DNA of 63,856 nucleotides, counting the filler, from Hausera hauseri (taxonomy: Eukaryota): NCBI GenBank assembly GCA_046269625.1. It is 10 parts of 10 records of this genome, joined end to end, with 100 filler letters (N's around TTAATTAATTAA, not from the genome) between each part and the next. Parts side by side here need not be neighbours in the genome. Positions count along the whole stretch, not along the records: positions 15,156 to 23,647 come from JBJURY010624330.1; 9 more parts are not named here. One strand, given 5' to 3'. Positions 15,156-58,330 of this stretch are shown one piece after another (the first letter of the stretch is position 1; the number at the start of each line of letters is the position of its first letter). Below the pieces are notes generated by a model. That model searched no databases. It saw nothing but the letters and a program-made list of their open reading frames with translations, and had not been told where the DNA came from. The translations under genes were made by a program, and so were the position numbers.

Positions 15156-16320
15156 ACTGAGAATTTGGTCGCGGATTTCCTGTCGCGGTTGGACCAATAT
15201 TTTTACCGAAATTCTAAAGCTCAATCAGCCGTCTGCTGATATTCTTAGCTCTTTCAAATCCTTCGAAATCATTGATAGCATTGCATACGATACATCTAAC
15301 TTTGGTAATAAAAAATCATTCTCGATCCTTCTTTGAAGAAACCAGCTTTCCTTCACACGCATTCACTTCCTCATGTAGGCTCGAAAGCAAAGTATCGCTT
15401 GCTCCAACGTCATATAGTTTGGCCATCAAGGCGCACAGATGTACAGGGTTGGATTAAGGAATGCGTCGCCTGTCAAACATACAAAGTCAACAAACATCTT
15501 ACACAGCCGCTTTACCATTTCCCATGTACAGCACGCTTTCATACGGTCCACCTTCACCTCGTTGGACCCTTACCTTCTGATAACGGGTATAAAACATATT
15601 CTCACTACGATGAATCGTGCTACTCGCTGGCCTAAAGCCCTTACTCTCCGTTCAACAAACACTGATTCAGTAGCAGATGCCTTCATTAAAATTTGGATCA
15701 GTCGTTTTGGATCCCCACGGGACATCATAACGGACCAAGGTCCGCAGTTCCAATCGGAACTCTTTAAATCGCTTGTTAAACGCTGGGAGATATCACATTT
15801 CCATACAGCACCGTACCATCAACAATGAAATGGTCTTCTTGAAAGGTTCCATCGAACAATGAAAATTTTTTAAAAATTTTGGCAGACAATCATCGCAATT
15901 TTTCGTCCTTTCTGTCATTTGTTCTACTCGTGTGGCGCAACACTCCTTCGACCACCACGGGTTGTGCTCCAGCCGAGGCATATTTTTGGACTCCAATACG
16001 GCTCTGTTCGAACTTTCTGACCTCGACCACAATCCAACAAACGAAAACATTCGCACGGCACAGTCTCACTTTGTTGAGGTCAGCTCAGACTCGTTCTGCA
16101 GCCTATTTAACAATAAAAAATCGTACATTCCGAAGGATTTATACTCAGACAAGTTTGTATGGATGAAGGATCAATCACCTTCGTGTTTTCGACCTCAGTA
16201 TGTTGGCCCATACAAGCTACTTCACCTCTCATCTCATACAGCTATCATCTTACGTCAAGACAAACCCTACAACGTCCACATTTGGAATCTTAAGCCCGCT
16301 TTCTTCGTCGACGACAATCC
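15156..16320 (+). pseudogene. Gypsy (CsRn1-type) integrase, 3' end of an element
   Basis: NLVADFLSR; HSLPH...WIKECVACQ (HHCC); VHLHLVGPLP; WISRFGSPRDIITDQGPQFQS; HTAPYHQQ; PQYVGPYKLL (GPY/F). Same family as 30744-31715 and 52928-53523. Confidence 0.92.
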
Positions 16321-16834
16321 GGATGCCGATTTTACTTCCACCTGGACATGGCCCTCCATTTTTGGCAAGAGTCACGGTTTGGTGCAACTAGGCCTTCACG
16401 GTTTTCGTCTTTCCTTTTACCTTTTGGCCTATGTTTGTTTGGCAGCCGAACAATCCATATCAGTGTCAAATAAAATCAATATTCTTATTTAGTTGTTTAG
16501 CAGGCTACTAACTATTCTAGCTTCTAATTTTGACCCTTTGTTTCATAACTGTCGTCGAAAAGCCTGGACTAAAGTTAGAAGTAATGAATGACAATACAAG
16601 CCCAACTAAAGCATGTTGAGTACATAAAAATACCCACGGAATTTATCGGTTTTGCATAGCCCTGCAAAAAACAAAAATACGGAAGCTAACTTAAGTCCCA
16701 TAAAATTTCTGGATTTTTACGGTAAGGGATTGACATGTGTCATTATCACGATTTCATTACCATAATATCTTAATGATCATCACTAATTATCGATCTCAAC
16801 AACATTACTTTAGAACGAATTACTTTCCTATTCG

Positions 16835-16985
16835 GAATTTAATCTAAAATATGGTGGATTTCATGATGAATCTCGTACAGTTCAATTAAATCGTAGTAAG
16901 AATGCCGGATACATCAAATGTAAAATGTGTCTTGAAGATTATCAAACAAGAATAATTATCTAAGTCAGGAAGTCGATGTACCACC
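16835..16985 (+). pseudogene. ELOF1: Captured fragment of transcription elongation factor ELF1/ELOF1
   Basis: HDESRTVQLNRSKNAGYIKCKMCLEDYQTRI/NYLSQEVDV (one frameshift) vs ELOF1 [40 protein letters not shown]. Confidence 0.75.
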
Positions 16986-17169
16986 CAATACAGCAACGAG
17001 AAGGACTACCTATATTGATCGCTTCGATAATGTAGTAAAACAGAGTAATTTATCCATAGAATTTGATTACCACCAAACTGGAAAACACAGTGACACAAAT
17101 GGTTATTTATTTGTAACCGTACCATCCGGTATTTGTGTTGCTTCAAAAGACTTTAAAAGAGATTTTACA

Positions 17170-17991
17170 TTGAACAATAATATTACAATTTGTGATAGTG
17201 AATTATTAGACAAATCGGAATTTTATGAAACGCCTTCGGACCAGTTTCTCATATTAAATCCAATATTATGTATGCCGATTAGAAAAAACAATAAACAAAC
17301 GACTAATACTCCATATCAAATTGAAGAAGAGCTGATCGATAAAACTATGCATAGAAAGCATCGTCAAAACTTTTTAGGGCAATTATTGGTTGATACGAAT
17401 ACCACTTTGAATAGCAATTTGGCAGTCATTTGTGATTTGGATATTCCGTCTGATGCCCATTCTTTTACTCGTACGATTATACCCGATGATCCCTGCGACG
17501 ACTTCATATCAAACCATCCGAAGACAACGAGCCATACCGTTGCCTCACTCTACGTATCGGGACTTTCCAACGAGAAACCACTTTCCGAAGATGAGACCAG
17601 TTTGGTTGCCAATGACCACTGTAACACGTTACCAAATTCCATATTATGCAAAACATCACCTTCACCAGCACCGACGCATTCACGACCAAATACTTATTTT
17701 TCATTACCTATACTGCCACAATCCGGAATGAAACGATCACCGGATTTAGATGAAGTTTGCGATCTGTTGAAAAAGACGGATTCGGAATTGGAGAAAATTC
17801 AACAAGACGCTTTTATGGTCATTGATAATGAGGATCTCTATTCGAATTCAGTGACACCGTTTGAAGCGGAAAACCATTTACGAATTGGCGATAGTTGTGA
17901 TGATGTTCCTTTCATTGATGATGATGCATGTTATACCGATTCTTTCTATGGTTATTCGAATTATAAGATGTGGTTAATTAAACATCCATGA
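17170..17991 (+). CDS. Open ORF of unknown origin in the retroelement upstream region (possibly chimeric host fragments)
   Basis: 273-aa acidic, S/T/P-rich ORF ending just before the UBL-gag frame; no family recognised. Confidence 0.4.
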   Translation: MNNNITICDSELLDKSEFYETPSDQFLILNPILCMPIRKNNKQTTNTPYQIEEELIDKTMHRKHRQNFLGQLLVDTNTTLNSNLAVICDLDIPSDAHSFTRTIIPDDPCDDFISNHPKTTSHTVASLYVSGLSNEKPLSEDETSLVANDHCNTLPNSILCKTSPSPAPTHSRPNTYFSLPILPQSGMKRSPDLDEVCDLLKKTDSELEKIQQDAFMVIDNEDLYSNSVTPFEAENHLRIGDSCDDVPFIDDDACYTDSFYGYSNYKMWLIKHP

Positions 17992-18003
17992 CTCTCTAAA
18001 CTT

Positions 18004-21000
18004 ATGGACATATACGGAGCACCCGAACAGTCTGCGATGAACATCGGCCATCAGAGATCGGCCCTCGGCTATGCGACTCGAAGATCATCAGATTGGAAAC
18101 CTGTGCACGTCGGTGATCCGTGCGCCAAAACACGCCTCTGGCATCACTCCTCAACCCTTTCTTTTTTGTTTTTAAAAATAACACACATTTCTGCCATACA
18201 CACTAGTAACATGGATATTGCTTACACCCTCTATATGTCTCTATCCTCCTTCCTACACATTTCCGACTTTTATTTATCGCACCATGGTTCTGTGCTACAC
18301 CCGTCTGACTCACTTTCTTCATTCTCTTCTTCGATCATTCATCTCACCCTTCACTTTCACATCCTAGGTGGTTATGACCCTGATCCTTCTGCTATATATT
18401 CCTCCAAAACACGATCTGGTGGTCTCTCTGCTGACTCTGCACAATCTGCTTCTCCTAACCTTCCTTGCACAGAGTTCTTCATCGATAAAACTAATTCAAG
18501 CCTCACTTGGCTACAATTTCATTTACAATGGCTTAAAGCCAATCATATTACCGATTCTTTCTTGCGCACCAATAGCTTGTTACTTCTTCTCCCAGCAAAT
18601 ATCAAGCATCAAATCAATATTCTTGCTGATATCCTTACTTCTCCAACACCATATGACATGCTTTATGGGTTTGTTCTTCATATTACCGATTTATCGATTG
18701 ATAATATAATACAGAAGTAATTTAACGAACATGCTATAGGCAATCAAAAGCCTTCTGACTTTCTGCTAACCTCTATTTCACACCTAAGTGCTCTTGGCGT
18801 TACCCCCACCAACAATGCAGACATGATTCGTCGTTATTTCCTCTCCTACTTGCCCACTTTTATCAGAGTTCTCCTTACTATCGTTGACGACTCGACGGCG
18901 ATTGAAAAACTTGCATTATTGGCTGATAAAAGTTTCTAAATTTTACAAACTAAAAACTCACAACCCGTAGCTGCAGCAACCACGCATACTCTATCGCACG
19001 TAGACACCACTGTTTTCGCACAGCAACTACAATCAATGCAGAAACAATACGATATTGTACAACATTCAGTTTCTGCCATCACGACCCAACTAAGTAATCT
19101 GTCTATGTCTCGGAGAGGTGAGACCCGTGTATCGCGTGAGCGTAGCCTCTCGAAGCACTCATTTCGTTCTAAATCTCCTGGCAAACAAATGATCTGTTTT
19201 TATCACGATAAATTTTGTAGAAACACAGAAAAATATCTCTTGGGCTGTAAATTTTATGACGAGCGTTTTGCCATGGGCAGCCCTATCTGTATTTATCACA
19301 TAAAATTCCACTCTCTAGCCAGATCGTGTGTTCCGGGATGTAAACATTACAAAAACAACTTCAGTTTTTTTCATCTTCTCTCCCCCTCCTTCTTCTTATC
19401 ATTCATCTTCTTTTCCTCCACAATCTTCAAAAAACTAAACACGCCGCCAGATGTCACGGCACATTCTGGCATAGGCAATACCGCTCAGTCTTCTGGCCGT
19501 CTAAATACCGCCTCCGCAGTTTTTCTGTTAAAAGCTCCACTGTTCTCTAGCAATTCTCCACATATCGATTTTCTTATCGATTCGGGAGCTGCCTTTTAAT
19601 TTTTCCCTTTGTCCTTCGCCACTACATCCACTGCAGTTTCTTCTCCCCCACTTTTCACTGCAGCGGTCAACCTTTGCGAATCGCAGGTACCACGGAACTC
19701 GTTTTTACATATTCAAACTTACCAGGCAAATTTGTCTGGAAATTCCACGTGGCCAATATTAAATCGCTAATATTCGGCTCAGATTTTTTGGCCGAACACG
19801 ACCTGCTAGTTGACTGCAAGTATGGCTGTTTGCTACGTAGAGACTCCGTCGTGAACGTGAACAATTGCGTACCGTACAGCTTAACAGGCACTTCGTCTGC
19901 GAACTCATATGTGAATTTGCTAAATTGCTCGTCGGTTGATAACAACACATTTAGTAGTTTATCTATTTTCTCAATTACATCTCAAACATAAAAGTCGATT
20001 TGAAAACAATCCGTTAAACCGAATGGTAATGGTGGCAATGTCGTTCGTTCATCGCCAATCACAGTCGCCGCCTCCTCTGATAATATACTTAAATCATTTT
20101 TATCATTAGATTACAATCCCAAATCCTACATCATTTATTCTAGTTCTTGCATACTCTAGTTTAAGCGCCCATCAACAACTTATCACCACATTGTCACCCA
20201 ACACCAAAGACCTATCAGACAAAAGGTGAGGCTATTATCTCCTTGTTAATAATATTTTTTATCTGACTGATATTTGGCAGATTTGACAATGACAATTTAA
20301 ATTTAATAAATACCTGCAAACAAATAAATAACCAATTTGTAGAATAAAGTCCGGGAATGTTTGAAAAAAACAAACAAGGCAAAATTTTAATTAGCATGCA
20401 ATTATAAAACAATAGTTTTGTAAAGACGGTCTAACGGCGCAATTGTATGGTGCCGCCTCGAAGCAGAAAATCGGGGCCCGCCTATGCGCCCGACGCGCCG
20501 GCAGCGGAAAACCCGGCCGTGCCCAACCGAATGGGCCGGAGGGAAACAGTCGGCTCGGGCCCATACTCCTCGTAGACGAAAAGCCGTGGAATTAGAGTTT
20601 AACGAACTCGAAAAATCTGGTATCATCCGGAGGTCAAAATAACCATGGGCTTCACCATTGTATGTAGTAGCAAAAAGGACGGTACTTTTCGACAATGTGG
20701 CGACTACCGGCAAGTAAACAATCTAACCATCATGGATGCTTACCCATTAACGCTCATAAAAGACATCCTGTATAGTCTTAACAACACCAATACGTATCCC
20801 GCAATATATCTGCATAAAGTTTACCATCAAATTACCGTTGCACCCGATGACATTCCAAAGACTGCTGCCATAAATCCATTTGGCCTTTACGAATACAACT
20901 TTATGCCATTCGGTTTAGGTAACGCAGCCCAAACCTTTCAACACCACACCGACACCGTTCTCTCAGGCCTTGATTTTGCTCATCCTTACATCAGTGACAT

Positions 21001-21630
21001 ATTAGTTGCCTCCAACTCCGTCAAACAACACTATGAACATCTCCAAATTATTTTTCACAGACTACATCACAGCAACTTACAAGTTAACTTCTCCAAGTGC
21101 AACTTATTTTAGAAACGTGTCAATTTCTTAGGCCACATCATCACTCCTCTTGGCCACTCGCCACAACCTGATCGACTACAGCAATTGAAAAATGTAATAC
21201 TACCAACGACCACTACAGATATGAGGAGTTATCTTGGCACACAACATTTCGTCCATAAATACGCACCTCATTGCTCTGAGCTTACAGCACCTTTCGCACA
21301 CCTCTCATCTGGAAGCAAAAAAGAGTTAATCCAATGAACTTCCGATTTAATGAACAAATTCTATCATTTACGTGAAGGCCTAAAAACCGTCGAAATACTG
21401 GCCTACCCAAAACCCGACGCGGAGCTAATACTTACCACGGATGCCTCTACCCCAGCTACTGGTGCAATACTACACCAGATTTTCAACGGCGTCGATGAAC
21501 CTTTGGAATTTTACTCTCGAAAACTCACACAACCAGAAAGCCGATATTCAAAATTTTATCGAGAGTTACTAGCCATAGTTCTGGCATTAAAACATTTCAA
21601 GCATCTACTCTCTCGTCCATTTATCACCCA
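18004..21630 (+). mobile_element. CsRn1-type Gypsy copy A: UBL-Gag-PR-RT-RNase H, decayed
   Basis: UBL ending LHFHILGG (GG 18367-18372); gag QKPSDFL..LEKLALLAD; duplicated CFYH/CIYH..C...C nucleocapsid motif; FLIDSGA protease; RT (DAYPL, YHQI, FMPFGL.NAAQTFQ, PYISDIL); RNase H LTTDAS, RELLAIV. Confidence 0.92.
20244..20565. repeat. 322-bp insertion (probable solo LTR) with 5-bp target-site duplication inside pol
   Basis: CTCCT at 20239-20243 and 20566-20570; removing the insert and one repeat restores VRLLSPRRRKA, matching copy C VRPLSPRRRQA; termini TGT...ATA. Confidence 0.8.
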
Positions 21631-21881
21631 TGTTAGAGTTGAGATATGGGACGAAACGCGGAGTCTGTGAAACACCATTTATTCCAACTTCATGTTGTAC
21701 ATTAAAACGGAGTTCTCCTTCGTCGAGTTCGTGATTTGACCGCTTGGTGATTTCTTCCGATTGCATTGTTGTCCAAATTCTAAATAAAAAAATGTACCTC
21801 CTTTATTTGGTAAAAAGAAACAAATTTTTAATTTATACAATTTTATTTTGATTTTTTGTTGGCGTTTATTTAACGGAAACA
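21631..21881 (-). repeat. LTR of another element, truncating the RNase H of copy A
   Basis: Minus strand: purine tract AAAAGGGG then TGTTTCC...AATAAA...CTAACA; RNase H homology stops abruptly at 21630. Confidence 0.6.
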
Positions 21882-22029
21882 CCCCTTTTATAAAATTTAA
21901 AATGTTTCACGAAAGTTAATAATTAATATACAATTTAAAATTTATCAATCGAGTTTTCCCTTCATAATATTTAAATTTTTATTTTTCTTGGAACTATATA
22001 ACCGCACTACGTCTATAGTTCAATGAATA

Positions 22030-22495
22030 TAATTACGGTTTTCTCTGTAAGTAGCAATTAGACATCATAAATAAACTAAAAATTAACTGGTGGCATAACG
22101 AAACTTACATAGTTATTTGATTTTGTCTTGCATTTATCCATTGTATAGCGAGAATCTAGAATTAAACGGCAATAATTTTATGTCGAAAAATATTGAAGTT
22201 AAAAATACAAAAATTCCTTACTTAAATAAAAATGTTATTTAACCACAAGCAAAGGTTCATCATTAAATAAAAAAATGCTTCAAAAAATTTAGTTTACTTA
22301 CTCTCATAGATTCTTACTTGGCCGACTAGCATATTTTATTCATCGATTTAAATGCCTTTTCCATTTCATTCTACATTTTTATTTGAAAATGTTTGCGATT
22401 CAAAACAAAAATAAAACTTACCATCTGCTTTTCTACTTTCTTAAGAAACTTGTTTTGATCATCAAGTATAGATAGTAAATGAATTCGTTCTTACT
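22030..22495 (-). pseudogene. Possible remnant of a short-intron host gene (coiled-coil exons)
   Basis: Several GTAAG...AG ~50-60 nt introns on the minus strand joining ERIHLLSILDDQNKFLKKVEKQM|NEMEKAFKSMNK; in-frame stops. Confidence 0.3.
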
Positions 22496-23647
22496 AAACA
22501 ACATAAAGACTAATAATGAAATTTATTATGGCTTTTTATACGAAACTTGAGTAAAAAAAGGTACATGATTTGAAAAATGCGTATAGTCCAGCGAATTAAA
22601 CATTTTATGGGTGTAACATAGTGAAATCCGCAAATTAGAGAATCGACGACTCAAATGTTTACTTAATTTCCAATGAATTTAGAATGAATTAAAATTGTAA
22701 ATATTGAAATACTGGTAGTGGAAGAAATTGATTGGAAAACAGAAATCCATTTAAACTGTTTGAATAACAATTGAACAACAGAAAATCCATTAAAATTGTT
22801 TGAATAACATTAGAAACGTGTACATAGAATTTAACTACAACTATATAAGCAGTGTTCCAAACACCAGAAACCAGAACAATTTTTGCGACTTAGGCTCGCA
22901 GTAATACGTGATCAATTCAGTGCTAACATTGACGTTATTCTATTCATATTACTGACTTTTCTATTCGTTACTGAAGCTTGTGTTGTACGTGGTATCAATA
23001 AAGGTGATTATTTATTTTTACGTGTTCTAAAATTTATAGATTTCCATCGTCTCTTAAAGACGATTTGTACTACCCTAAGGTAAACTATCACTTAACATTA
23101 CATAGTTAGGACGAGATTTTGTAATTTGAGACAGGCAGCCAAACGCATGCAGTACCCGCAATCGGCTAAATTTATTCTAAAATTCTTAAGGCACAAGCAG
23201 ATTACTCGAGAACGAGTAATCCTAACCTGCTGAAAAAGCAATATAAATTTCGTAATAACATTGTTATAGTGGGAGACGTTTAGGGCCACCCCAATTGTAA
23301 CATAAATATGTTATGAATGTCATATTTTTGATTAAAAATCATTTTAAAATTGCATCAATTTTTCTTACTGTTTAAATTTAATATGTGTACTTTTGTAAAT
23401 AAACTTTAATCATAATGGAAAATAAATTAAGATAAATTAAACGTCATATATTGCAAATTAAGAAAAATTATTTTATATGCACATCTTTATTCAGTTTAGG
23501 CGGTATGGGTTCATTATAGGAAGTCTTTAAGAATGCGAGACTTTTTTAGCGAGCTTAATTTCAAATTTTTTATTCAATATCATTGTAATTTCTATAATTC
23601 CATGTGTTTGATAAATTGTATAAACTTAGTCGACTCACGAACTATAT

Positions 23648-29776: not shown

Positions 29777-32700
29777 CCTTATGGAAAATTCTACTTTACA
29801 ATACTCGTGTGACGTTGATGTCGGAATGGTAGATACACGATCTACTTACACTATATTTTTAAATAACGTTTTATTTTCCTTCAGTTTCCATTCATCTTGT
29901 TCTTCGGAGGCTATTTCCCGTTGACAACATTGCTGTTAATATAGTAATTTGTCAAATCCGGGAGAAAGTTATTGGATAATTCACAGTTGATTTTGCTTAT
30001 TTTCCCGTGATTAGTAGTATTGAAAAGTCTTGATGTATCAACCTGTGCCAATATCGATAACGATTTTTCATCTGTATTGGTTGAAAGATGATTTTTATTC
30101 TTGCGGTCAGGATGATGATATCGATTGAAGCGAATGTAGACCGATATACTGCCAAACAAACAAAACCCGGCAAGAAAAAATCGAGGCGACAAACACCACG
30201 GTCAAGCGGTGTCATGCGCCGAAGTAAAACCAATACTTGTGGTGACGCCCGAAACTGCGGCACCACATTACTCCCGTTGCAAAATGATATTATGTAAAGC
30301 AAAAATGAAAGTAGAAAACTGCAAAGAGAACAGTTAATGTGATCTAATCAGTTTTGGTATGAACAAGACGTTGAACATTATCTATATTTTGTTCTCTGAT
30401 AAATTTACTAAAGGTAACTGTCTTGCTTTGTTTAACGTGCTGTTTGATTGTCTGTTGCTGTGGTCGGGGTGAAGATATATTTTGATTTGACCTCAGCAGG
30501 TTGAGAACTGGTTGGTATGGCGTTTAGTGTTGATAGGAGTCTTAGAGTAGCAGGTTGTCGTGTAGGTAGATTGGAAGAAGAACTGAAGGAATCAAGAAAA
30601 ATTTGTGTAGACTCAACAGAAGATTCTAGTATGTCATTAACAAAGAATGCGGGTTTTACGTTGGTTATGTATACGTTTTGTTCTTTATCGTTTTTGAGTA
30701 TCGTAACTGTGTGTGAGGTAATATTGAGAACTTTAAATTGTCCTTAATAGTTTGGTTGGAATCCGGAAGGTGAAGGGTTTTTTAACCACACGAACTTTGC
30801 ATTAAATAGTAAATCAGGTAAGTATGTTTTGTCACCATGTATTATTTTGCAGAAAGAGTCCTGGATTAACTGTAGAAAATGATTTTGTGCGGACCTAATG
30901 GTTTCGTCAGTTGGTATGTTGTCCAAGTCGGTGAGTTCAAAGAGTGCACTAATTGTGGTACCAAAAAAGGCTTCAGCAGGTTCGCAATTAATAGTAATAT
31001 TATGTGTGTTGCGCCACCCAAGTAATACAAAAGGAAGGATGGTGACCCAGTTCGTATGCGTTTCGGCTAGAATCTTTAGCGAGATTTTAAAAGTGCGGTG
31101 AAAACTCTCCAATAAGCCGTTCGACTGGGGATGATATGGAGTTGTGTGTATGTGACTTATTCCCAGTCGATTAACTGAAGACTTGAATAGATTCAATTCA
31201 AATTGAGGACCTTGGTTTGTAATTATATTACGGGGTAAACCGAACCGGCTAATCCAAATTCTTATGAATGCATCGGCTATAGAATCTATACTGATGGAGC
31301 GCAATGGAACGGCTTAAGGCCAACGGAATGCGCGGTCCATCATTGTTAAGAGGAATTGGTAGCCGTTATCGGAAGGTAATGGACCGACGATATCTAAATG
31401 TACCGATTCGAAACGGGACGTGCAGGGAAAATGAAATGAAGGTGGCTTGAGATGCTTAGCTACTTTGAATTTTTGACAAGCCGCACACTGTCTAACCCAG
31501 TCTTGTACGTCAGACCTCATCGATGGCCATGTTACGTGACGTTTGAAAAGGCGGAATGTAGCCTTCGAATCTGGGTGATGTAACGAATGGATATGGTTAA
31601 ATGCAATTTGTTGTATAGAAGGTGCCAAGATTGGCAAATGTTGTCCAGGTGTCGACGTGTCCATGGCTACTCCATCAATGATTTGTACAGATTTGCATTG
31701 TTTAAGAATATACACGGAACGGGAGTTTTGGATTAATTGTTGTCTGAGACAGAAATATGACCAATTTTAAAGTTAAATGTTGACAGATATGAGATATGGC
31801 GTTCTTGAAGAAGAGATGGTTGTTTCATTTTCATTACGTGAACGAGAGGTTTGTGGTCCGTTTAAATGGTGAAGGAACGAGCAATAAGCAAATGTGAAAA
31901 ATGTTTCAGAGCTAAAACTATAGCAAGGAGTTCTCTATCGAAGGTGGAATAACGGCGTTCTTTTGGCTGGAGCTTACGTGAAATGAATTCTAACGGCTCA
32001 TTTATTCCTTGTGATATTTGATAAAGAACCGCTCCTACTGCTATAGTTGATGCGTCGGTTGTTAGAATGATGTCAGCGTCGGGTTTTGGATAAGCTAAAA
32101 TCTGGACTGTTTTAAGCTTTTCGCGGAGTTCATCGAACTGGTTAACAAGTTCTGGCGTCCAATATATAAGTTTTTTCTTTGGCCCTGCTCCTAACTGCAC
32201 GAAAGGAGCAGTTAACTGGCTACAGTGTGAGACGTATTTATAAACGAAATGTAAAGTCCCGAGGAAACTACGAATGTCAGTAGTGGTTTTCAGTAGCTCG
32301 ATGTTTCGTAATTGATGAATTCTATCAGGCTGTGAGCTGTGAGCGTCAGGTGTGATGACGTGGCCAAGGAAATTGACCTTTTTCTGGAAGACGTAACACT
32401 TAGAAAAGGTCACTTGCAGATTATAGTTGTGTAAACGTTGGGAAACTAGTCTGAGATGTTCTTCGTGTTGTTTTGGTGAAACCGACGCGACTAATATGTC
32501 GTCGATGTACGGGTGTGCAAATGGCAAACCTGAAAGAACTGAATAAATGTGCTGTTGGAAAGTTTGTGCTGCGTTCTTTAAACCGAACTGCATGAATGCA
32601 TATTCAAAAAGACAAAAATGTGTTATTATGGCCGTTTTTTGGATGTCTTCAGGAGCTACCGGTATTTGGTGGTAAGCTTTTTCAAGATTTATAGTCGAAT

Positions 32701-34712
32701 AAATTGTGGTCTTGTGTAAAGAATGCAATATATCCTTAATCAAAGGTAGAGGATAAGCATCCATGGTAGTAACGTTATTAAGTTGGCGGTAATTGCAGCA
32801 TGGACGAAATTTGCCATCTTTTTAGGGACGACATGGAGTGGTAATGCCCAAGGTGATTTCGAGCGTTTTATTATGCCAGCTTGCTCGAGTGCAGATAATT
32901 CCGCTTGGATTGTCTGTTGACGGCGTGGTGAAAGTGTGAGGAGTTTTTGCCTAACGGGCCTAGGATTTTCTGTAATGATATAATGAAACGTCGTGTTAGC
33001 CGGTCGAAATGATGAGTCTTTTTATTGCATGAAAACAATACTTGGTTAAATACTGTTGCATTTCTTGGCTAAGCGTAGTAAAGGCTGATATTGTCACGGC
33101 AGTGGCTTGATTGGACTTAGTATAAGAAATGGTAGAATTCGAGACGCCTAAATTTGACTTCAACAGAAACTTAGGATTATTTATTTTGGTATTAATACGG
33201 TTTTTATTCACATTGATTGATGGTTTCTTTAATATTAATTTTATAATAGAGATAGGCTGCATTATCGGTTGGTTATTTGTAGAGATCGGCTTTGTTGATC
33301 TGCTTTTAATGATCCGACGTTGTCTACAATCTACAAGGAGGTTGTAGAAAGATAAAAAATCAGACCCAAGTATTGAAGATTGTGTGTCAGCAACGATGAA
33401 AGTCCAATCAAAAATGTCGGGGAATGGTGGTAATGTGAATGAAACCGTAGCCGTGCCGAATACACGTAAAGCTTAGCCGTTAGCTGTGTACAACTTGATG
33501 TTAGATGTTGAGATGGCTGTTGTTTGGATAGATGGTGGTAACAGAGAGACAGCGGTTCCTAAATTAATGAGGAAGTTAATTGATTGATTGGATTTGGAAG
33601 TTAAAGAGGCTTTTAATGTAAAAACGGAATAAGTACGGCTATCATGATGAAGATGTTTGTCTGTGCCAGCATGTGCCGAAACGCCTGGCGGCTTTACAAG
33701 TTTTTCGGAGGCACAGGATTTATGTTGTTGGAAGGGGTAGGATGTGATGGATTAGATCGGTTAACGAATGTGCAACCTGTAACGCAATTCTGTGCTTTAG
33801 AATTGAATTGGCGCATAAAATCTGCAACCTAAGCAGCATTTAGTGCAGTTGTTTTTGAATTAGGTGTGGTAGAAATACACCATTGATCGTGTAGGTGACC
33901 CCGAATGCCTTGAATTTTGAGATGAAGTGCGGCTATGGTCCGCATCAAAACGATTTCGTCTAGGCATGGTCAAAGCTTCGATTTTTGAAGTGAGTGCAAA
34001 AATTGCTTGGTGTATGTTGGCGTTTTCTGAACGTAAAAAATTTATCTTGGAGTTCAGATTAGATATGTCGTTAGCTTGTTGAGATTTTGGTTTGTAGCGC
34101 AGCGGCTAGTAATGGGGCTGTATGCGCATGTAATATCTCGTGGCTTTTGTTAGTCAGTTGTGCTAGTTTTTGTAGTGACGGTGTCCTCTACTATGGTCAA
34201 CGGTGCACATATGTCTCTAGGTAAAGACTGCAGAAAATATCTACGTAATAAATTGGCATTGTTCGCTTTATTAACGCTAAGAGTACTCAAGTGAGTTAAT
34301 GGGGTTTGAAAAATTTTGAGGGTTTTAATGTGCCTATGGTTTTTTGTCCTTAAAATATTTGTGGATAATGTTGTCCAAAGATAGTTCCGTGATTTTTAAA
34401 ATCGAGTTAGTGTTTTGTATGGGTCACTGCTTTTGAAAATTTCCGACAAGTTGGGAACCTGAGACTTAATTTTGGAAGGCAAAAGTATATGCAAGCTGTT
34501 TGTTTTAAAAAATAGTCGAAAATATTATTTGACTTCAACCAAGCCGCATGAAAGTCCAACCACGTCCGGCTGAAATGTTGACTGTCAAAGAAGTATTCTA
34601 CGAAAGGTAGGTTTACAGTAGACGACGGAGGTAGAGGTTAATTTAGCGGTATGCTTACAGTAGGAATGTCAGCAAAGTCTTGTTGGTCGTTGGATGAGGC
34701 TTTCGGATCGGA

Positions 34713-34940
34713 CCTACCTAACAGACGGTAATGTGCAGTCAGTATAGGTGTTGAAGATGAGTTGGTGTAACTTGTTATAATGTCGGATTGTCGGAGAAAA
34801 AGTCCATTAAAACTAAGGCAAAAATTAGCAAGAGTTGTTTGTCGTTGTAACATGCCTGACAATTTTGCAATTGTTGCTGATTTGTGAATGTAGTAGATTT
34901 TTGTATGCTTATTTTCGAATAACAAGACAAGTGGAACGAA
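34713..34940 (-). other. Ubiquitin-like domain at the N-terminus of Gag (copy B)
   Basis: LVLLFENKHTKIYYIHKSATIAKLSGMLQRQTTLANFCLSFNGLFLRQSDIITSY...LTAHYRLLGR aligns along ubiquitin; the terminal GG reads GR (GGT AGG, one substitution away). Confidence 0.75.
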
Positions 34941-36069
34941 AATGTCACATAAATCGGGTGTGCAATGTCGTACATAAGACACGGGCGCGCCAAAAATCCC
35001 TGAGTTGTAATGGCTGGCCTGAGCATTTTGTGCTTCATTATTTATAACAGAAGTATGAATAATGAGATAAGATGACTCACCGGAGTAATCCAATTCCGAA
35101 GGTTTGCTGTATTTCCTGTGCAGTAGACTACTGTACCCTAATTCGCCTGTTGTTGTAGTTTTTTGATCCGGTTCACGCATACGTTCCCAACGTGTTTTGC
35201 ACATAGCGCTTTGAATCATATTTGAACATAAATCTTGACGATCTGCCGATTTCGCTATATAACAATCGTGTTTAAAAAACGTGACTGATTTAGGGAACAT
35301 TATTGGCAGGACTAATTATTCTCGTAAAATATTTAGTTGCCGAATCCACAATGAACCGCTTCGATGCGTTTTGAGCAAAATCAATGAGATCATTCGATAT
35401 TTCGTTAAGGTCTATTTTGGTCAAATTTATGTTAGAATACTGTAGATTATATACATGAACTGCAGCCAAAACGGCATCCAGTGTGTCGAGATGATAATTC
35501 ACACAGACAGCAGTGCCGTTATTTGAGAGTATTTTAATTCAGTGACCATAAGTAATGGTCATATTTCCTCTTTTAAATCTCTCGCCGAACTCACCGAAAC
35601 TGGCGGCATTTTCGCATATGGAAGTCAAAAAATGAACCGAAAATATTAAACACAGTCGATTATCAAAACTCACTTCTTTGGTTAAAGTCGATTTTTAGTT
35701 CATGTATTTTCCAATTAACACATTTGCGTTTTCAACTGTCTTTCAACAATACACCATAACTCTGCTGGAAAATGTCGGAGTTTACCGGAAAAAGTGGTGT
35801 CGTATGATATGAAAAGTTTTTAAGAGTTTGAAGAATTTTTAACGGTTTCTATGGATACCTTTGTGAGGATTTTCGACGTAAATAAGCGTATCAAAATTAA
35901 GATAGAAATCATATTTAAAAACATTTGGCGGGAAATACTTTAGAAAACATCTAAGTTTATGGTAGAAAATGCTTTGGCCAGTAATCCAAGCTGCAACATA
36001 AAAGTTGAACGCTTCAGATAAAGAGCATTTTTCTTTACCGAATCACATTGGTAGTCAAGGTACAACGTG

Positions 36070-36235: not shown

Positions 36236-37077
36236 AAAGATTTGGTGTTGAAACCGAAGAAACCGACTGAGTTGATTTAGTACCAACATATCTGGACGTT
36301 ATTAGACTGGAAACGTTGGTTTTCAAATCCAATATTTCCGATTGGGAAACTTCAACCCAGTTGCAACCATAATTCATTTTGACTCGAGTTGTCACTATTT
36401 CGTAATGAGTGGAATCCAACATTTGATTAAGTCGATCAGCAACATCTTCCTGTTCGTTAAAGAGCAATTCCGGAATTGCAGGATTGACAATCGGGATGGG
36501 ACTATCTGTCTTGTCCAACAATTTACTTTGAGGTTTAAATAAATTAAGATCACATGGAACAGAATTCACAGTGATGGAGAATCGTCGATTTGTTTTCATT
36601 GCGCTTATCCGATGCTATGTAATTGAAGGCTAATTCACCATTTTCAAACATGAAACACATTCGATCCATGTCAGCAAACACCATAATGCTCAATAATGAT
36701 TCTGAAAGTTCTCTATTTGAAAGAATTTTCATACCCAATTCAGCCATTGATTTTAAAACACAATCTGGACTGAAAAAATTAGTTGATAACGAATATAAAA
36801 ACTGTTCATTTCCGAAAGTGATGAATAAACAATTAAAGGATTCATTAGATACGGTTTTAAAGATTGAAAGTGTAACTCCGGAGGGTTGTGTTTTGTCGAC
36901 ATTTGTCGTGCTATACGATTCGGAACAATTTGACTCAAGGAGGTCGATGTTTATCGGACTAATTGATCTAATACAATTTTTCCCTGAATCCGAATTTAAC
37001 AATTGCGTTACTTATCGTTAAAAGGTTACGATAAAACGGACGAATTAAACTCAAGTGATAGCGAAATAACGATTCAA

Positions 37078-38050
37078 TCATGCCAGTTTCGAATTTGCTT
37101 CGTTGATTTTCGATTTGATTAAAGTCAAAACTTGAGTTCGTTTTTTTGGGAAACTATTAAAAATCGACAGTAGTACGATGAAATCAAAACTTTGACAACG
37201 AAAATCGTTGAAATTTGTCGAAATTAATTTCAGCCAAATATTTTGCAATTTTGGTTTAAATTGAAATGTTCTTAATGAATGGATCAATGCCGCTGCGGAA
37301 TTTTGTTTAACCGTAAAATTAATTGGTGAAAACATACTTTGTAAATTATCAAGTTCGGTATTTAAACGAATTCAATTAATGAGTTCAATCATGTTGGAAC
37401 CTTCGCCACGGTTCATGAGAAACGACACTATCGATGGTAGAATTGAGTAGTTCCATTAGAAGTTTTTCCACTTTCTGAAAGAAATTCTGTCTCAAATCCA
37501 GTTTGCTAATGGCTTCTAATGCCGGTGAAATTAATTTATTTCTACTGGAAATCCAATCGAATAACTTATTTGCAAGTAATGCGCTACATTGTCCTTTGCA
37601 GATATCCGGTAAAAGCGATATTAAATAACGCTGCATAGTATCGTTGGAAATATATTTGACATCTAATAATTTTTCAACAATATCATCCATTCGGCGTACG
37701 TAAACATTCCATTTGGAATGATCCTAACAAAGCTTCGCTAAATTAACACTATCTTCTTCATCTATTTTGGACAATTCGACAATTTTTTGAATTAGAATCT
37801 CAATGAAAAATTCTGCAATTTCATTTACATTATTTGAATAACAGATTTTGGTGTTTGGAGTAAACAGGCCTCAAAATTCGATGAAACTGGCTTTAAAATA
37901 ATACTGAAGTAATAATCATTTTCCACAAAACTAATTAGATTTTCTCGAAGTAGCTCAAATTCTGAAACATCATTTTTAGCTAAATCTATGAGAGTTCTAA
38001 GAACTGATTGGATTGAAACTTTTTGAATATATCTTTCCTATGTTACATTT
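37078..38050 (-). pseudogene. FANCD2: Captured N-terminal fragment of Fanconi anemia protein D2
   Basis: MQRYLISLLPDI...LISPALEAISKLDLRQNFFQKVEKLLMELLNS vs FANCD2 LQHDIITSLPEI...[38 protein letters not shown]...FDFIVLLSIF...LIKSKI vs WIKAIE...FDLVMLFIIY...LRNKI; frameshifted, no evident introns. Confidence 0.8.
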
Positions 38051-49070: not shown

Positions 49071-49086
49071 TAATGATCTGTTACGA

Positions 49087-52927: not shown

Positions 52928-55900
52928 AGGCCATTCGATTGGAGATGATAAGGCGTAGTATGTATGTGATGGATCCCCAATCGGTTAACTAGGGATTTTA
53001 ACAGGTTGGATTCAAACTGTGGACCCTGGTCCGTGATGATGAAGCGAGGTGATCCATACCTTCCAATCCAAGTGCAGATGAAAACGTCTGATATGGTGTT
53101 TGTGTTCGTGTTCCGCAGAGGGATGGCTTCTGGCCATCGCGAGGCACGGTCCATCATGGTAAGGATGAATTGATGTCTGTTGTCTGGAGGAAGAAGGCCA
53201 ACGATATCGATATGCACGGACTCGAAACGCGATGTGCAGGGAAAGTGAAATAGTGGTGGCTTTAAGTGCTTAGTTGTTTTGTATTTTTGGCATGCCACAC
53301 ATTCCTTAACCCTTTCCTGCACATCAGAACGCATTGACGTCCATATTACTTGTCGATGAAGTAGACGAAAAGTGGCTTTAGCACCAGGATCGTGTAATGA
53401 ATGCACGCTGTGAAATGCTTGCCTTTGCAATGATGCTGCTACAATTATTAAGGAATTGCCTCGTTTGGAGGTGTCTAAAGCCACGCCGTCAACGAATGTG
53501 CAAGATTTGAAAAACTTAAGCATGTTCTGAGGTGGTTGGTTCTGTTGTAGTTGGTCTTGCGTAAAAATCGGAGGAAAATTAATAGAACTAAGCGACCTAG
53601 ATAAAAAATCAGCAACTAAATTGTTAACTCCGTTAATATGTTTAATATCAAAGTTAAATGTCGATAAGTATGATATTTATCGTTCTTGGCGTGTGGAAGG
53701 GTGTTTCATGGCCATGGTGTTAAGTAAAGGCTTATGATCTGTTTGTAGGGTGAAATGACGAGTAACAAGCAGGTGTGAGAAGTGCTTTAAAGCGAGAACG
53801 ATTGCCAATAGTTCTAGATCAAATGTAGAATATATGGTTTCAGGTGTTGTTAGCTTGAGGGAAAAAAATTCTAAAGGTTGGTTTTTCCGTTATAGATCTG
53901 GTGGAGTACAGCGCCTACAGCAGTGGTTGACGCGTCAGTGGTAAGGATAAGTTCTGCATCAGGCTAAGAGAAAGCTAGAATATCAACGGTTTTGATGCCT
54001 TCGCGTAGCTTGTCGAATTTGTCAACCAATTCAGGTATCCACTAGATTGGCTGATGTTTTTTGCCGCCGCTTAGATGTGCGAATGGTGCTGTCAATTCCG
54101 AGCAGTATGGGACGTATTTATGTACAAAGTGTAGTGTGACAAGGAAGCTACGCATTTCGGTGGTTGTTCGTGGCAACTGGATGTTTTTAAGAGCTTCGAC
54201 TCGGTCTGATTGGGGAGAATGACTGTCTGGTGTAATAACGTGGCCTAAAAAGTTAATGCGCTTTTTGAAGAAGTTCGTTTGTTGAAATTTATTTGGAGAA
54301 TATGATGGGTAAGACGTTGGGATATTGCGCAAAGGTGTTCTTCGTGTTGTTTGGGGGAAGATGAAACGACTAGAATATCGTCAATATAAGGGTATGCAAA
54401 CGGGAAATCTGCAAGATTTGAATCGATGTGGAGCTGAAAAGTTTGTGCAGCATTTTGCTAACCAAATGGCATAAATAAGTATTTATAGAGACAAAAAGAA
54501 GTAGTTGCAGCGGTTTTTTCTATGTCTTCGGGTGCCACCGGTATTTGATGGTATGCGTTAGCTAAATCAATGGTTGAATAGATGGTGGTTAAATTGAGAT
54601 GATGCAGGATATCCTTGATGAGTGGTTAAGGATACTCGTTCCTGATAGTCAAGTTGTTTAGCTGTCGGTAGTCACCGCATGGTCTAAAAGTATCGTCCGT
54701 TTTTGTACAACGTGTAATGGTGATGACCAGGGAGATTTGGAACGGCACACTATGCCGGAACGTTCTAGATCAAAAAATTCGGCTTCTACGGCCTGTCTAC
54801 GACGAGGTGACAAAGGTCGTACCTTTTGACGTATTGGACGTTGATGCTGTGTAACTATATGGTGTACAGTGCTGTTGGTGGAAGTGAAAGTACGATCTTT
54901 TTTAAGTACGCGTAAACATGATTTGTTGATGAACTGTTGTAAAGTTGTAGGTAACTGTGAGAGATTTGGTGAAGGTGGTGAAACAGCTTGAGTAGTATCA
55001 GATGCAATTTGTGAGTTGTTAGGTGATGTGCAGTCAAGTGGTATTTGGTGTAATATGGTTGAATTGAAGATGGTGTTGGATGAAGTTACTTCGCTGAATG
55101 AAACAATGTTGGTGGCAGTACTACACCAATCGACATCAAATCTCAATCGTATATCCATATTATTGTTTAAAAATTTACGAATAGAATTATTATAAAAAAT
55201 CGAATTATTCATAGACTTTTTTAAGATAGGCTTCCGCATTCCGGTCGACTATGCGGTAGTCGAAAGGCTATTTACATGTCCAGGAATGTCGCCAGCGGTG
55301 CCTTTCCTCAAACGCCGCTGACTGCAGTTAACCAGTAAGTTGTAGTGTGACAGAAAGTCAGATTCTAAGATTGCCGACTGTACGTTAGCTACTGTGAATA
55401 TCCAGTGGAAGGGTGAAAGAAAATTTGGCAGAGTGAAACCTAGTTTATTTGTACCAGAAATGTGCAGCGATTGGACTGAAGCAGTGTATAAGTGTTTGCC
55501 CATGAATGGAGTATTTTGTGCGGAAAAACTTGATGGTAGTAAAGAAATTGCTGAACCTGTATCGATGAGAAAGTCAATAGATTGTGTTGAAGGGGCAGTG
55601 ATTGCAGCCTTTAGAGTAAAGACTGCAAAATAAACGTGTCGGCGTGCAGAATGTAAAGCAGTGCCTTTGCCATTGTTTGCCGTAACCTCTGGCGGCGAAC
55701 TTAGTTTTTTTTAAAAGATGAAGTGGGACGACTGTGAGAAGTGAAGGCAGTAAGTCCGTCGTTCGTATTGGATTTAAAGGTGCAGTGGGAGATACATTCA
55801 CGTGCTTGATTTTTGAATCTTGCATGGTAAATGCAAACAACGGTGTCCAATGAAAATTTATGGTTATAAAACTTGCATCCTAGGCAGCATTTCTGGGCAT

Positions 55901-57144
55901 TAGTGTTACACCTGTTGTGGTAATATCAGATGGACGCACGCGCAGGCCATGGTGAGCGGTTTCGTGGCGAAGAACGGGTACGATCAGCGGCAAAAAACCC
56001 CCTCGGCAGGACAGAGATAATTCGCTCAATTTATTATTGATGTTGTTGATTGTTGCATATATTGCAATGTTTTCAGCACGTAGCTGATTAAGTTGTTGCT
56101 CTATAGATGTGTTATCATTTGCGGTAACTGCTGCTGAGACTACTGGTTGAGAATTTGCGTGTGTGACATTGTGTGTCCTATCGGCTAATTCGGCCAATTT
56201 TTCAAGCGGCGTGGAGTCTCCCACCACGGTAAGGAGGGCCCGGATTTGCATGGGTAGCGCATTAAGAAAATAGTGGTGTAGAAGATCTGGGTTGTGCTCC
56301 TTAGTGACACAAAGAATACGTAAGTGTGCCAACGAGGTGCGTAGGAAGTCACTGGGTTTTTGTGTCCCCATTGCATTTTCATTAAAGAAACGTTGCAGTA
56401 TGGAGTCAATTGAAGGTTCTCTCTGTTTTAATACTGCGTCGAATAGTTGGGTATAAGGGTCAGAGTGTTGAAAGATACCCAGTAAGTTATGTATTGATGC
56501 CTTTATGGAGTTGGGAGAAGGTAAAGTAGGATATGGGCTTTGGATAAGGAGTCTGTGATACCGTTAGACTGTAACCAGAGTTAATGGAAGTGGGGACACG
56601 TTTTGCTGGACTTTTCATTATCTATGTAGTCAGTGCAATGTGTAGAAGTATTGGTAGGATTTTTGTGAGAAGAATTTGCGTCAGTTGAATTAGGTGGCTG
56701 ATTTGGTTTGGTGTAGTAGAGAATGGGTGTTGCTCTTTTTGTGGTGGTTGTATCCGTGGTGTCAATAGTTGGCGAAGGGTTTATGCCACCATGGATACGG
56801 AGATGTATTTTGAAGCAAGCGTGATTTGAAAAAAAAGGTAAAGTTTTGTTGAGATGTATGATAGTACCGTGATGGCTGAGATAAAAGTCTGAAGAATTAA
56901 GGAAGAAATGCAGGTCTGTAAGTGGAAATGTGTGGATGTGTTGTATTGAGGGTATAGATGTGTATATTGTTAAAAAATGGAAGTGGGAGCAGTGGTACGC
57001 CTGGGGGCATGACGTGGGACCGACGTCGAAGGCGCCACCGACCAACCGGCGTAGGGTTGGCGGTCGAGACTTCCGCCCGGTGGGGCGGGCACCAAATTGG
57101 AGGGTGCCAGAATTTCTCCTCAACGGTGTCGTCATTGGTGCTCG

Positions 57145-58055
57145 GCATTTCTGAATTGCCATCATGACGTCTCTAGGCTTAACTGCATCGCGATAGTTCA
57201 TAACAATCGATATGAATTTCCCTTTATTTAAGTCGGTTTTAGTTGTTTTGTGATCTTTAAGTAAGACACTCGTTGTGATTGTTCGACCGATGAACTGACA
57301 TTTAAAGCGTGTATCGTGCAGAATTGGAGAATACGATATTGACTTTGTATGTACTTCTTTCAAACCAGAATTCATCGTTATTTCAAATCGCGTTGATGCT
57401 GTAGGTGAACTAATCATTAGAAGTATTATTCGATTGAGATTAGGATAATATGGTGAATTCCTGAACAATAAATATTTACAAACGTCATAAAGAGCTTCAC
57501 TATTAAAAGTTATAGACAAATCACACGTATCTGGTGTTGTATGACTATGAAATACGCTATTGTCTGGTTCAACGATCGCCGTAGACATTATCGAGCTGGG
57601 GAATTATGCCAATTGTATTCGGTTTGTTTTGGGATAAGCAACAGCTAATTGCTGAATTAACAGGGCGCCAACTCTAGACCCCGTATCGCCACCCATACTG
57701 TTAATGACGATAAATACATGCAAATTATACGTTATTTCAGCTAGTTTAAATAGCAGCGGTCGAAACAATCTTATTAATCGTAAAGCAGAATTGAGACTTC
57801 GTTGAGTAAAACTGTTATCGGAATCTTCACGGTTAGTAATCATTAATTCCTTATTAGGAATATTTCGACATGCACCGGTTTTAAACTTATTTATGCATGT
57901 TGGCTCTGAATCGCCGAATATCCCCTTGGATTCAACTTATAGTGGTTTACTGGTTGGGATAATGCTGTTGTTCGGTCAGGTTCGTCAGCTAAATCATTAT
58001 CGTTTAATGTTTTTATTCCATATGGATCAATAGGGTGTTCAAGACAATAATTCGC
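57145..58055 (-). pseudogene. Captured, divergent, internally deleted alpha-tubulin sequence
   Basis: YCLEHPIDPYG (YCLEHGIQPDG); ELMITNREDSDNSF (EQLITGKEDAANNY); NSMGGDTGSRVGALLIQQLAVAY ([23 protein letters not shown]); STAIVEPDNSVFHSHTT, EALYDVC, PYYPNLNRII..ISSPTASTRF; GKFISIVMNYRDAVKPRDV (GKYMACCLLYRGDVVPKDV). Confidence 0.93.
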
Positions 58056-58204: not shown

Positions 58205-58330
58205 GCGTTCGGGACTCAACGACGCAATGGATGCCAATAAATCGTAATTAATCGACGGTGAAGCTTCCAATTTTGGTTGCCAATTATCTGGCGGCGGTGC
58301 TGGCAATGAAATTAGAAATTGCTTCTGTTT
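58205..58330 (-). pseudogene. RCAN: Captured calcipressin/RCAN fragment
   Basis: [38 protein letters not shown] vs RCAN [38 protein letters not shown]. Confidence 0.85.

What the first reader, a model, noticed from the sequence alone, without database searches (positions are those of the whole stretch)
18160..18372. Ubiquitin-like domain with di-glycine fused in frame to the Gag N-terminus in all three copies
Seen: immediately before the Gag core each copy encodes a ~70-aa segment with ubiquitin pattern ending LHFHILGG (18367-72), KIHLRIHGG (56785-90) and TAHYRLLGR (34713-18), with conserved FYLSHHG/FCLSFNG. The copies are otherwise strongly diverged, so the domain appears retained. Established: host deubiquitinases cleave after LRGG-type ends of ubiquitin fusions, and ubiquitin insertions in cytopathic pestivirus polyproteins act as processing signals. 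Inference: the UBL may let a host protease release Gag from whatever is translated upstream, making the element tolerant of cargo capture. Alternatively it could be a conjugatable modifier, a decoy or an ESCRT/proteasome adaptor.
Basis: partly seen in the sequence, partly recalled or inferred. Interest (0 to 1): 0.88.

Follow-up and report, generated by a model that had tools for sequence, protein, structure and literature searches.

The report
Ubiquitin-tipped Gag behind captured host genes
A small clade of Ty3/Gypsy jumping genes, likely from animals, has a domain predicted to fold like ubiquitin and ending in two glycines in front of its capsid protein, often with pieces of unrelated host genes fused further upstream, and a host enzyme likely cuts at the glycines so the capsid protein would be freed from whatever was captured ahead of it.

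Summary
Confirmed and extended. The ~72-aa segment at 18160-18372 is predicted to adopt the ubiquitin fold (AlphaFold pLDDT 74; top Foldseek hits ubiquitin, FAT10, ISG15). It sits in the Gag frame in three diverged, decayed elements on three separate contigs. Five intact database relatives share it. GG ends it in 7 of 8 aligned sequences (copy 3 has GR), and 7 of 8 have no Met between the domain and the capsid. These Gags form one clade of CsRn1-like elements with a doubled CHCC knuckle; 0 of 80 outgroup loci have the domain. Upstream lie degenerate, uninterrupted host-gene fragments on the sense strand: alpha-tubulin (in frame) and calcipressin in copy 2, FANCD2 and ELP1-like in copy 3, ELOF1-like (weak) in copy 1, CARM1 in P0142, DIS3L plus CNOT1 in P0125. 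The last two are single 900- and 1051-aa Gag frames. Best reading: host deubiquitinases clip after GG, so Gag survives fusion to any captured leader. Cleavage is untested. No 5' LTR was found, so whether the cargo rides inside the element is inferred. No description found in my paper searches.

The parts
18160..18372 (+). Copy 1 ubiquitin-like domain (beta-grasp predicted), ends HILGG; GG at 18367-18372
18373..19440 (+). Copy 1 Gag: Pro-rich linker, capsid-like helical domains, twin CHCC knuckles (19195-19248 degenerate, 19288-19341); two in-frame stops
   Evidence: capsid likeness of relative P0142 weak
19441..21683 (+). Copy 1 pol: protease (DSG 19576-19587), RT, RNase H; broken and truncated
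18003..18159 (+). GC-rich leader homologous to the leader of copy 2; PBS-like words near 18012 and 18109-18122 (uncertain)
   Evidence: 0 of 300 shuffles reach the score
16936..17991 (+). 351-aa ORF in the same frame as the domain, separated by one TGA; no family found; repetitive in run X1
16844..16960 (+). ELOF1-like host fragment (weak, E 0.008)
15156..16500 (+). End of RNase H, integrase and a 3' LTR-like stretch of a same-clade element lying just upstream of copy 1
56785..56985 (-). Copy 2 ubiquitin-like domain, ends RIHGG; 7-10 aa shorter in helix 1
57133..58052 (-). Alpha-tubulin fragment (about residues 20-337), no intron in the matched part; its last 157 codons run in frame into the domain; one stop and one frameshift further upstream
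   Evidence: (E 4e-20)
58217..58324 (-). Calcipressin/RCAN fragment (E 1e-9)
52928..56784 (-). Copy 2 Gag-Pol, broken; contig ends in integrase
34713..34940 (-). Copy 3 ubiquitin-like domain, ends RLLGR
34941..35315 (-). Open frame of no known family running into the copy 3 domain
36595..36900 (-). ELP1 first beta-propeller-like fragment (weak, E 0.0012)
37439..37813 (-). FANCD2 fragment (E 1.2e-8)
30343..34712 (-). Copy 3 Gag-Pol (PR, RT, RNase H, integrase), broken
30073..30275 (-). Purine tract and 3' LTR-like stretch of copy 3 (starts TGTGGTG, has AATAAA; end uncertain); no matching 5' copy upstream

Best explanation
These CsRn1-like Ty3/Gypsy elements encode a Gag frame that begins with a variable leader, then a domain predicted to fold like ubiquitin and ending in GG, then the capsid; a host deubiquitinase likely cuts after GG and would free a standard-sized Gag whatever lies upstream. 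Shown: the domain, its frame, its retention across the clade, and the host-gene fragments upstream. Inferred, step 1: host mRNA pieces are picked up by reverse-transcriptase template switching and land 5' of the domain. Step 2: because translation starts upstream, selection keeps only the frame open while the cargo's amino acids drift. Step 3: cleavage gives Gag a uniform N-terminus at the place where ordinary relatives have their start Met, so such captures stay viable and multiply. The tail (non-polar residue before the glycines in 6 of 8) resembles Fubi's, so USP16/USP36-type enzymes are the first candidates (inference).
For: Fold. Sequence hits 14 of 14 ubiquitin/Fubi. Protein-level constraint. 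GG in 7 of 8; residue after the tail never Pro (0 of 8); Met directly after GG in P0122 and no Met between tail and capsid in the other 7. Released Gag would be 306-345 aa versus 263 and 324 aa for two ordinary Gags. Clade of 6 domain-bearing Gags plus the N-terminally incomplete P0143, support 97/98. 0 of 80 outgroup loci carry the domain. Cargo: CARM1 E 4e-80, DIS3L E 4e-25 plus CNOT1 E 1e-16, tubulin E 4e-20, RCAN and FANCD2, all sense-strand. Tubulin is 55 of 157 identical to the best PDB chain (my count), with two in-frame deletions and no stop in those codons; neutral simulation gives P(0 stops) 0.003-0.035 at 40-60% identity. Mets upstream are at unrelated distances. Copy 1's upstream ORF is repetitive in run X1 (summed contig depth 337-1286 versus 5-10 in two unique bins, several contigs per site) and has an 810-nt (in-frame length) skip variant. 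Related contigs start at 18158 and 18163, and one joins other DNA at 18163. Precedents: pestivirus ubiquitin processing signal (PMC8310069, passages), Fubi-S30 (PMC10611586, passages), multi-gene LTR retrocopies (PMC5131818, passages).
Against: No cleavage data. No 5' LTR matches copy 3's 3' end within 4.4 kb, and PBS-like words sit between cargo and domain, which would put the cargo outside the element. P0142, P0125 and P0124 have a Met 92-97 aa before the GG end, so a local start is possible. 3 of 5 database families show no recognisable cargo. The DNA of the database proteins could not be seen; their link to intact pol genes rests on equal contig lengths (7611; 8766). The simulation weakens (P 0.14) if the host's own tubulin paralogue was already divergent, and the stretch was bounded by a stop. 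Summed contig depth is not a copy number. P0144 shows that chimeric ORFs occur in this collection. In the full-length P0142 model the domain had low confidence (pLDDT 42-50).
Confidence: 0.55

Rival explanations
1. Gene-trap reading: the host fragments are flanking DNA, not cargo. The element inserts sense and in frame into genes or retrocopies, borrows their promoter and start codon through a short open 5' end, and uses GG cleavage to shed the host N-terminus.
For: Several fragments start near their gene's 5' end (DIS3L, CARM1, tubulin, ELP1). PBS-like words lie downstream of the fragments. Only 36 nt separate tubulin from copy 2's first PBS-like word. Copy 3's 3' LTR-like stretch is open in one frame.
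Against: Two unrelated genes are stacked in P0125, copy 2 and copy 3. Long amino-acid drift with an open frame needs many rounds of replication with the element. Copy 1's upstream ORF is repetitive. No 5' LTR matching the 3' one was found.
Confidence: 0.13
2. The domain is an ordinary cleavable expression or folding leader, as in ubiquitin-ribosomal-protein precursors, translated from a nearby AUG. The upstream fragments are incidental retrocopy debris that is not translated with Gag.
For: Met 92-97 aa before the GG end in 3 of 5 intact relatives. P0124 has no extra leader. Best sequence hits are Fubi-eS30 and Ub-eS31 precursors.
Against: P0122 has no Met for 172 residues before GG. Frames of 900 and 1051 aa stay open through degenerate host fragments. 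Outgroup loci show host-type hits upstream in only 2 of 20, none in the Gag frame.
Confidence: 0.17
3. The domain stays on Gag, or is released and conjugated, and acts as an adaptor, decoy or modifier (proteasome, ESCRT or DUB binding).
For: Gly at the ubiquitin-47 position in 7 of 8 and Arg at the ubiquitin-72 position in 6 of 8. Uncleaved ubiquitin-like domains are common among the fold hits. A released GG end could be activated by an E1 (established chemistry, recalled).
Against: The Ile44 position is not conserved and Arg42 is absent in 8 of 8. Mean identity in the domain is only 0.26 versus 0.45 in the capsid, while the tail is kept. Uncleaved domains usually lose GG (recalled).
Confidence: 0.11
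4. The cargo fusions are assembly chimeras or chance in-frame juxtapositions; only the domain-Gag fusion is real.
For: Repeat-rich short-read contigs; P0144 is a bacterial barrel domain joined to half a Gag.
Against: The DIS3L-CNOT1-domain-Gag order occurs on two contigs of different length, with scattered differences. The fragments are degenerate, unlike live genes. All are sense-strand, in five separate elements.
Confidence: 0.04

Closest known systems
CsRn1 clade of Ty3/Gypsy (CsRn1, PwRn1, AgCR; PMC2582038, abstract and passages read)
   Same: CX2HX9CX3C (CHCC) Gag knuckle, PR-RT-RH-IN order, GPY/F motif, DUF7041-like Gag N-terminal domain (weak Pfam hits)
   Different: Knuckle doubled; ubiquitin-like GG domain ahead of Gag; host-gene leaders; tRNA-Trp PBS and paired LTRs not demonstrated here
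Ubiquitin insertions in cytopathic pestiviruses (BVDV Osloss, CP1, CP Rit; PMC8310069, passages read)
   Same: A ubiquitin-type unit inside a polyprotein lets host hydrolases make an exact N-terminus of the next protein
   Different: There it is recent, near-native ubiquitin in single isolates; here an old, about 20%-identical domain fixed in a retrotransposon clade; cleavage untested here
Fubi-eS30 (FAU) and ubiquitin-ribosomal precursors (PMC10611586, passages read; PMC8354635, search listing only)
   Same: Domain-GG-partner precursor; best sequence hit (E 0.007); non-polar residue before the glycines in 6 of 8
   Different: The partner is Gag, not eS30; exact RXLGG in only 2 of 8; origin from Fubi not shown
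LTR-mediated retrocopies and maize Bs1 (Tan et al. 2016, PMC5131818, abstract and passages read)
   Same: Partial, multi-gene host mRNA mosaics tied to LTR elements
   Different: There the retrocopy replaces internal ORFs, giving non-autonomous elements; here gag-pol is kept and the fragments sit 5' of Gag in its frame
DDI1-type host proteins (PMC2642776, one passage) and Ulp1/OTU-bearing Ginger, Mutator and Helitron elements (PMC2836005, passages)
   Same: Links between retroelement-type or transposon proteins and the ubiquitin system
   Different: DDI1 joins a ubiquitin domain to a protease in a host gene; the transposons carry the proteases, not the substrate domain

Membership tests
CsRn1 clade (Ty3/Gypsy) | CHCC Gag knuckle CX2HX9CX3C | tested here: met
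   Two per Gag in 6 of 6 complete domain-clade Gags scanned (P0121, cut short, has one); single in 54 of 80 outgroup loci, double in 1, none in 25
CsRn1 clade (Ty3/Gypsy) | PR-RT-RH-IN order with GPY/F motif | tested here: met
CsRn1 clade (Ty3/Gypsy) | tRNA-Trp primer binding site | tested here: inconclusive
   TGGTGACCCC in 26 of 80 outgroup loci; only a degenerate look-alike at 18109-18122 in copy 1; identity of the word as the Trp site is recalled
CsRn1 clade (Ty3/Gypsy) | Paired LTRs and 4-bp target-site duplication | tested here: inconclusive
   3' LTR-like stretch in copy 3 but no 5' match; copies decayed, nested or cut by contig ends
CsRn1 clade (Ty3/Gypsy) | RT groups with named CsRn1/Kabuki references | not tested
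   No named reference sequence was held; the RT-RH tree shows only a separate, supported branch of 22 rows containing copies 1 and 3
Ubiquitin-like proteins with processed GG end | Beta-grasp fold | tested here: met
   AF2 pLDDT 74; Foldseek ubiquitin E 6e-4; VIA Z 9.5, rmsd 1.8 over 70 residues
Ubiquitin-like proteins with processed GG end | Di-glycine right after the last strand | tested here: met
   7 of 8 aligned; GR in decayed copy 3
Ubiquitin-like proteins with processed GG end | Cleavage by a DUB/ULP, or conjugation by E1-E2 | not testable with these tools
   needs biochemistry
Ubiquitin proper | Ile44 patch, Arg42, high identity | tested here: not met
   About 20% identity; position 44 is S/S/S/M/M/Y/H/T, position 42 never Arg
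Fubi (FAU) | RXLGG tail followed by eS30 | tested here: not met
   RXLGG in 2 of 8; followed by Gag
LTR-mediated retrocopies | Uninterrupted partial mRNAs, sometimes from several genes | tested here: met
   parent genes' introns not seen
LTR-mediated retrocopies | Retrocopy replaces internal element ORFs | tested here: not met
   gag and pol follow the fragments in all 3 window copies
LTR-mediated retrocopies | Microsimilarity at junctions; LTRs on both sides | not testable with these tools
   no host genome held

The most novel reading that the evidence does not exclude
An autonomous LTR retrotransposon lineage has turned a captured ubiquitin-like precursor into a built-in release tag. This opens a translated cargo bay in front of Gag, in which host mRNA fragments are serially captured, kept in frame, amplified and expressed as free fragment-UBL proteins (truncated tubulin, CARM1, DIS3L/CNOT1): an exon-shuffling engine that costs the element nothing.
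Probability: 0.45. Interest if true: 0.9.

Novelty: new variant of a known kind. Interest (0 to 1): 0.8.

Why it matters
Retroelement Gags are normally started at their own Met and cut by the element's own protease (recalled). A clade that appears to hand its N-terminal processing to the host ubiquitin system would be a new processing mode for LTR elements. It would also explain how an element can keep gag-pol while carrying host-gene pieces in its first reading frame, unlike known LTR retrocopies, where cargo replaces the coding genes. It predicts a steady output of truncated host proteins tagged with a ubiquitin-like domain. The central step is cheap to test with a reporter.

Tried and rejected
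No whole genome is held for this window. Word-based search with copy 1 alone found nothing (0 of 133 candidates). Pfam has no ubiquitin hit for the three segments. ESM Atlas gave only sub-0.8 leads, several beta-grasp, and nothing for the 351-aa ORF. That ORF and two ORFs upstream of copy 3 have no useful PDB match. Viral contigs: 80 pattern matches, none confirmed. 5' LTR search failed. No tRNA genes in the window. No RNA holder listed. The full-length P0142 model was poor outside the capsid (pTM 0.28); its capsid matches were weak (E 0.12 or more). My first label 'Mag clade' was dropped after the CHCC test. Paper searches for this architecture listed nothing describing it, judged from titles and abstract starts; Repbase, GyDB and most subscription papers were not searchable, and no supplements were read. 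Scan notes: nothing by words, sequence or place. No complex prediction was run (enzyme-substrate pair, low value).

Full report
Setting. The window is ten contigs joined by N-spacers, and no genome is held. The three 'copies' lie on three contigs (15156-23647 +, 29777-39323 -, 52928-58826 -). They are about 65% identical in RT and integrase and all carry stops and frameshifts. An animal host is inferred from the DIS3L-like cargo of a relative and from the animal names among pol relatives; it is not shown for the window.

Observation. GG ends the segment in copies 1 and 2; copy 3 has GR. Codon-position identity between the three segments is 0.35-0.48, 0.46-0.61 and 0.24-0.34 for positions 1, 2 and 3, the signature of protein-level constraint. 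Pfam does not recognise the segments. The three-sequence profile hits only SF3A1 UBL and ISG15 in the PDB (5 of 5, E 0.8-1.5).

Relatives. A full HMMER scan of 1.84 billion representatives gave 4 proteins, their clusters added 3, and a second search gave 5 more. Five families hold the complete domain plus Gag: P0142 (RLRGG), P0121/P0125 (RLCGG), P0122 (RLLGG), P0123/6/7 (RLLGG) and P0124 (KAYGG). Of the other hits, P0143 lacks the N-terminus, P0145 and P0146 are ordinary Gags, and P0144 looks chimeric. With 8 sequences the profile hits 14 of 14 ubiquitin or Fubi chains, best Fubi-eS30 at E 0.007. AlphaFold gives copy 1 a two-strand, helix, strand, strand arrangement at pLDDT 74. Foldseek ranks ubiquitin (E 6e-4), FAT10 and ISG15 first; VIA-align gives Z 9.5, rmsd 1.8 over 70 residues to SUMO1. 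In the 900-aa P0142 model the domain shows a similar element order at low confidence, and residues 591-795 weakly match HIV, MLV, Arc and PEG10 capsids.

Family. The Gags carry CX2HX9CX3C, the CsRn1 signature (PMC2582038, passages), but twice; 54 of 80 outgroup loci have one, 1 has two and 25 none. The six domain-bearing Gags in the tree plus P0143 form one branch against 35 others (97/98). Copies 1 and 3 group with pol proteins P0002-P0004 on a distinct RT branch (FastTree). None of 80 outgroup loci has the domain. In the 34 outgroup loci examined, Gag typically starts at a Met a few dozen residues before the capsid (3 showed no Met). In the domain clade GG takes that place: 18-37 residues before the capsid, giving a 306-345-aa product. 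P0122 has Met right after GG; the other 7 have no Met between the tail and the capsid, and none has Pro after the tail.

What lies upstream. Copy 2: an alpha-tubulin fragment (E 4e-20) whose last 157 codons run without a stop into the domain, preceded by a calcipressin fragment (E 1e-9). Copy 3: FANCD2 (E 1.2e-8) and ELP1-like (E 0.001) fragments, then an unidentified open frame into the domain. Copy 1: a weak ELOF1-like piece (E 0.008) and a 351-aa unidentified ORF in the same frame behind one stop. P0142: CARM1 (E 4e-80) in one 900-aa frame. P0125: DIS3L (E 4e-25) then CNOT1 (E 1e-16) in one 1051-aa frame, seen on two contigs with scattered differences. Controls: in a Pfam scan of 299 of the window's 304 ORFs of 60 aa or more (E up to 0.002), the FANCD2, ELP1, two tubulin and calcipressin hits all fall upstream of the domains on the sense strand. 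Elsewhere there were mobile-element and viral domains, a TBP hit in a Polinton-like contig, a repeat ORF with many apolipoprotein-type hits, and five weak single hits. Upstream of 20 outgroup Gags, 141 ORFs gave host-type hits in 2 loci (arrestin; EAPP, weak), none in the Gag frame. 3 of 5 database families show no recognisable cargo.

Is the frame selected? The tubulin stretch is 55 of 157 identical to its best PDB match (my count), with two in-frame deletions and no stop. Neutral drift to 40, 50, 60 or 75% identity gives no stop with probability 0.003, 0.015, 0.035 or 0.14 (400 runs each). This is supportive unless the host paralogue was itself very divergent. Contigs of run X1 cover copy 1's upstream ORF many times (summed depth 337-1286 against 5-10 in two unique bins), include an 810-nt skip within it, and related contigs begin or join other DNA at 18158-18163, the start of the domain. 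The tool warns that summed depth is not a copy number, and X1 may be the window's source.

What is unresolved. Copy 3 has a purine tract and an LTR-like 3' end that loosely resembles the stretch after the integrase upstream of copy 1 (11 of 300 shuffles), but no 5' partner. Copies 1 and 2 share a homologous leader of about 170 nt (0 of 300 shuffles) containing PBS-like words downstream of the cargo. So cargo may ride inside the element behind an unseen LTR, or be flanking DNA. P0142, P0125 and P0124 have a Met 92-97 residues before the GG end, which allows a local start. The DNA of the database proteins was not available; their pairing with pol rests on equal contig lengths, and one of the two paired pol proteins (P0003) stops in RNase H.

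Mechanism. Shown: domain, frame, tail conservation, clade restriction, host fragments. Inferred: capture by template switching (as in PMC5131818), translation from an upstream start, and cleavage after GG by a host deubiquitinase (as for pestivirus ubiquitin, PMC8310069, and Fubi-S30, PMC10611586). The tail has a non-polar residue before the glycines in 6 of 8, position 49 is non-polar in 8 of 8 and Arg42 is absent in 8 of 8. These are Fubi-like traits that in humans restrict cleavage to USP16/USP36. The unconserved Ile44 position argues against a receptor-binding adaptor. I put cleavage at about 0.8, and the full model of cleavage plus cargo carried in the element at 0.55.

Novelty. Six paper searches and four note look-ups showed no ubiquitin-like domain fused ahead of a retrotransposon Gag. 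Repeat databases and most subscription journals were not searchable. Verdict: a new variant of CsRn1-like elements with an undescribed architecture; interest 0.8.

Noticed in passing
window 38115-38098 (-): A clean PBS-like 18-mer (Leu-type, label recalled) just upstream of the FANCD2 fragment, behind AT-rich DNA unlike copy 3's 3' LTR; the cargo of copy 3 may begin in another element.
   Followed up: partly
window 44631-48681 and 48782-52827: Two contigs 84% identical, Polinton-like (label recalled), with integrase, dUTPase (45034-45606) and a TBP-domain ORF (46187-46852, E 1e-8).
   Followed up: no
window 5602-15055: Decayed element with a Monjiviricetes-type fusion glycoprotein fragment (11770-12027, E 5e-5) upstream of its RT; an ORF at 5994-6524 resembles one at 39323-38970.
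   Followed up: no
window 30267-30073 (-) and 16345-16500 (+): Both LTR-like stretches are open in one frame and give similar hydrophobic peptides (1 of 200 shuffles, among many pairs tested).
   Followed up: partly
window 39424-44073 (-): About 1550 codons of coiled, spectrin-repeat-like protein (label recalled; only a weak TPR Pfam hit) with one in-frame stop and no visible intron.
   Followed up: no
window 24074-24997 (+): 308-aa ORF of 11- and 18-residue repeats with apolipoprotein-type hits, preceded by a 40-nt tandem array.
   Followed up: no
window 691-1946 (-): Broken family B DNA polymerase of viral/Polinton type (E 3.5e-7).
   Followed up: no
P0144: Bacterial outer-membrane DUF5777 N-terminus joined to the C-terminal half of a clade Gag; probably an assembly chimera.
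   Followed up: no
window 20240-20568 (+): An insertion of about 330 nt in copy 1's pol that related contigs skip, with very high depth: another repeat.
   Followed up: no
P0007-P0028 and neighbours: A 22-row RT branch includes many metagenome pol proteins whose Gags were not seen; the domain may extend through this whole branch.
   Followed up: no
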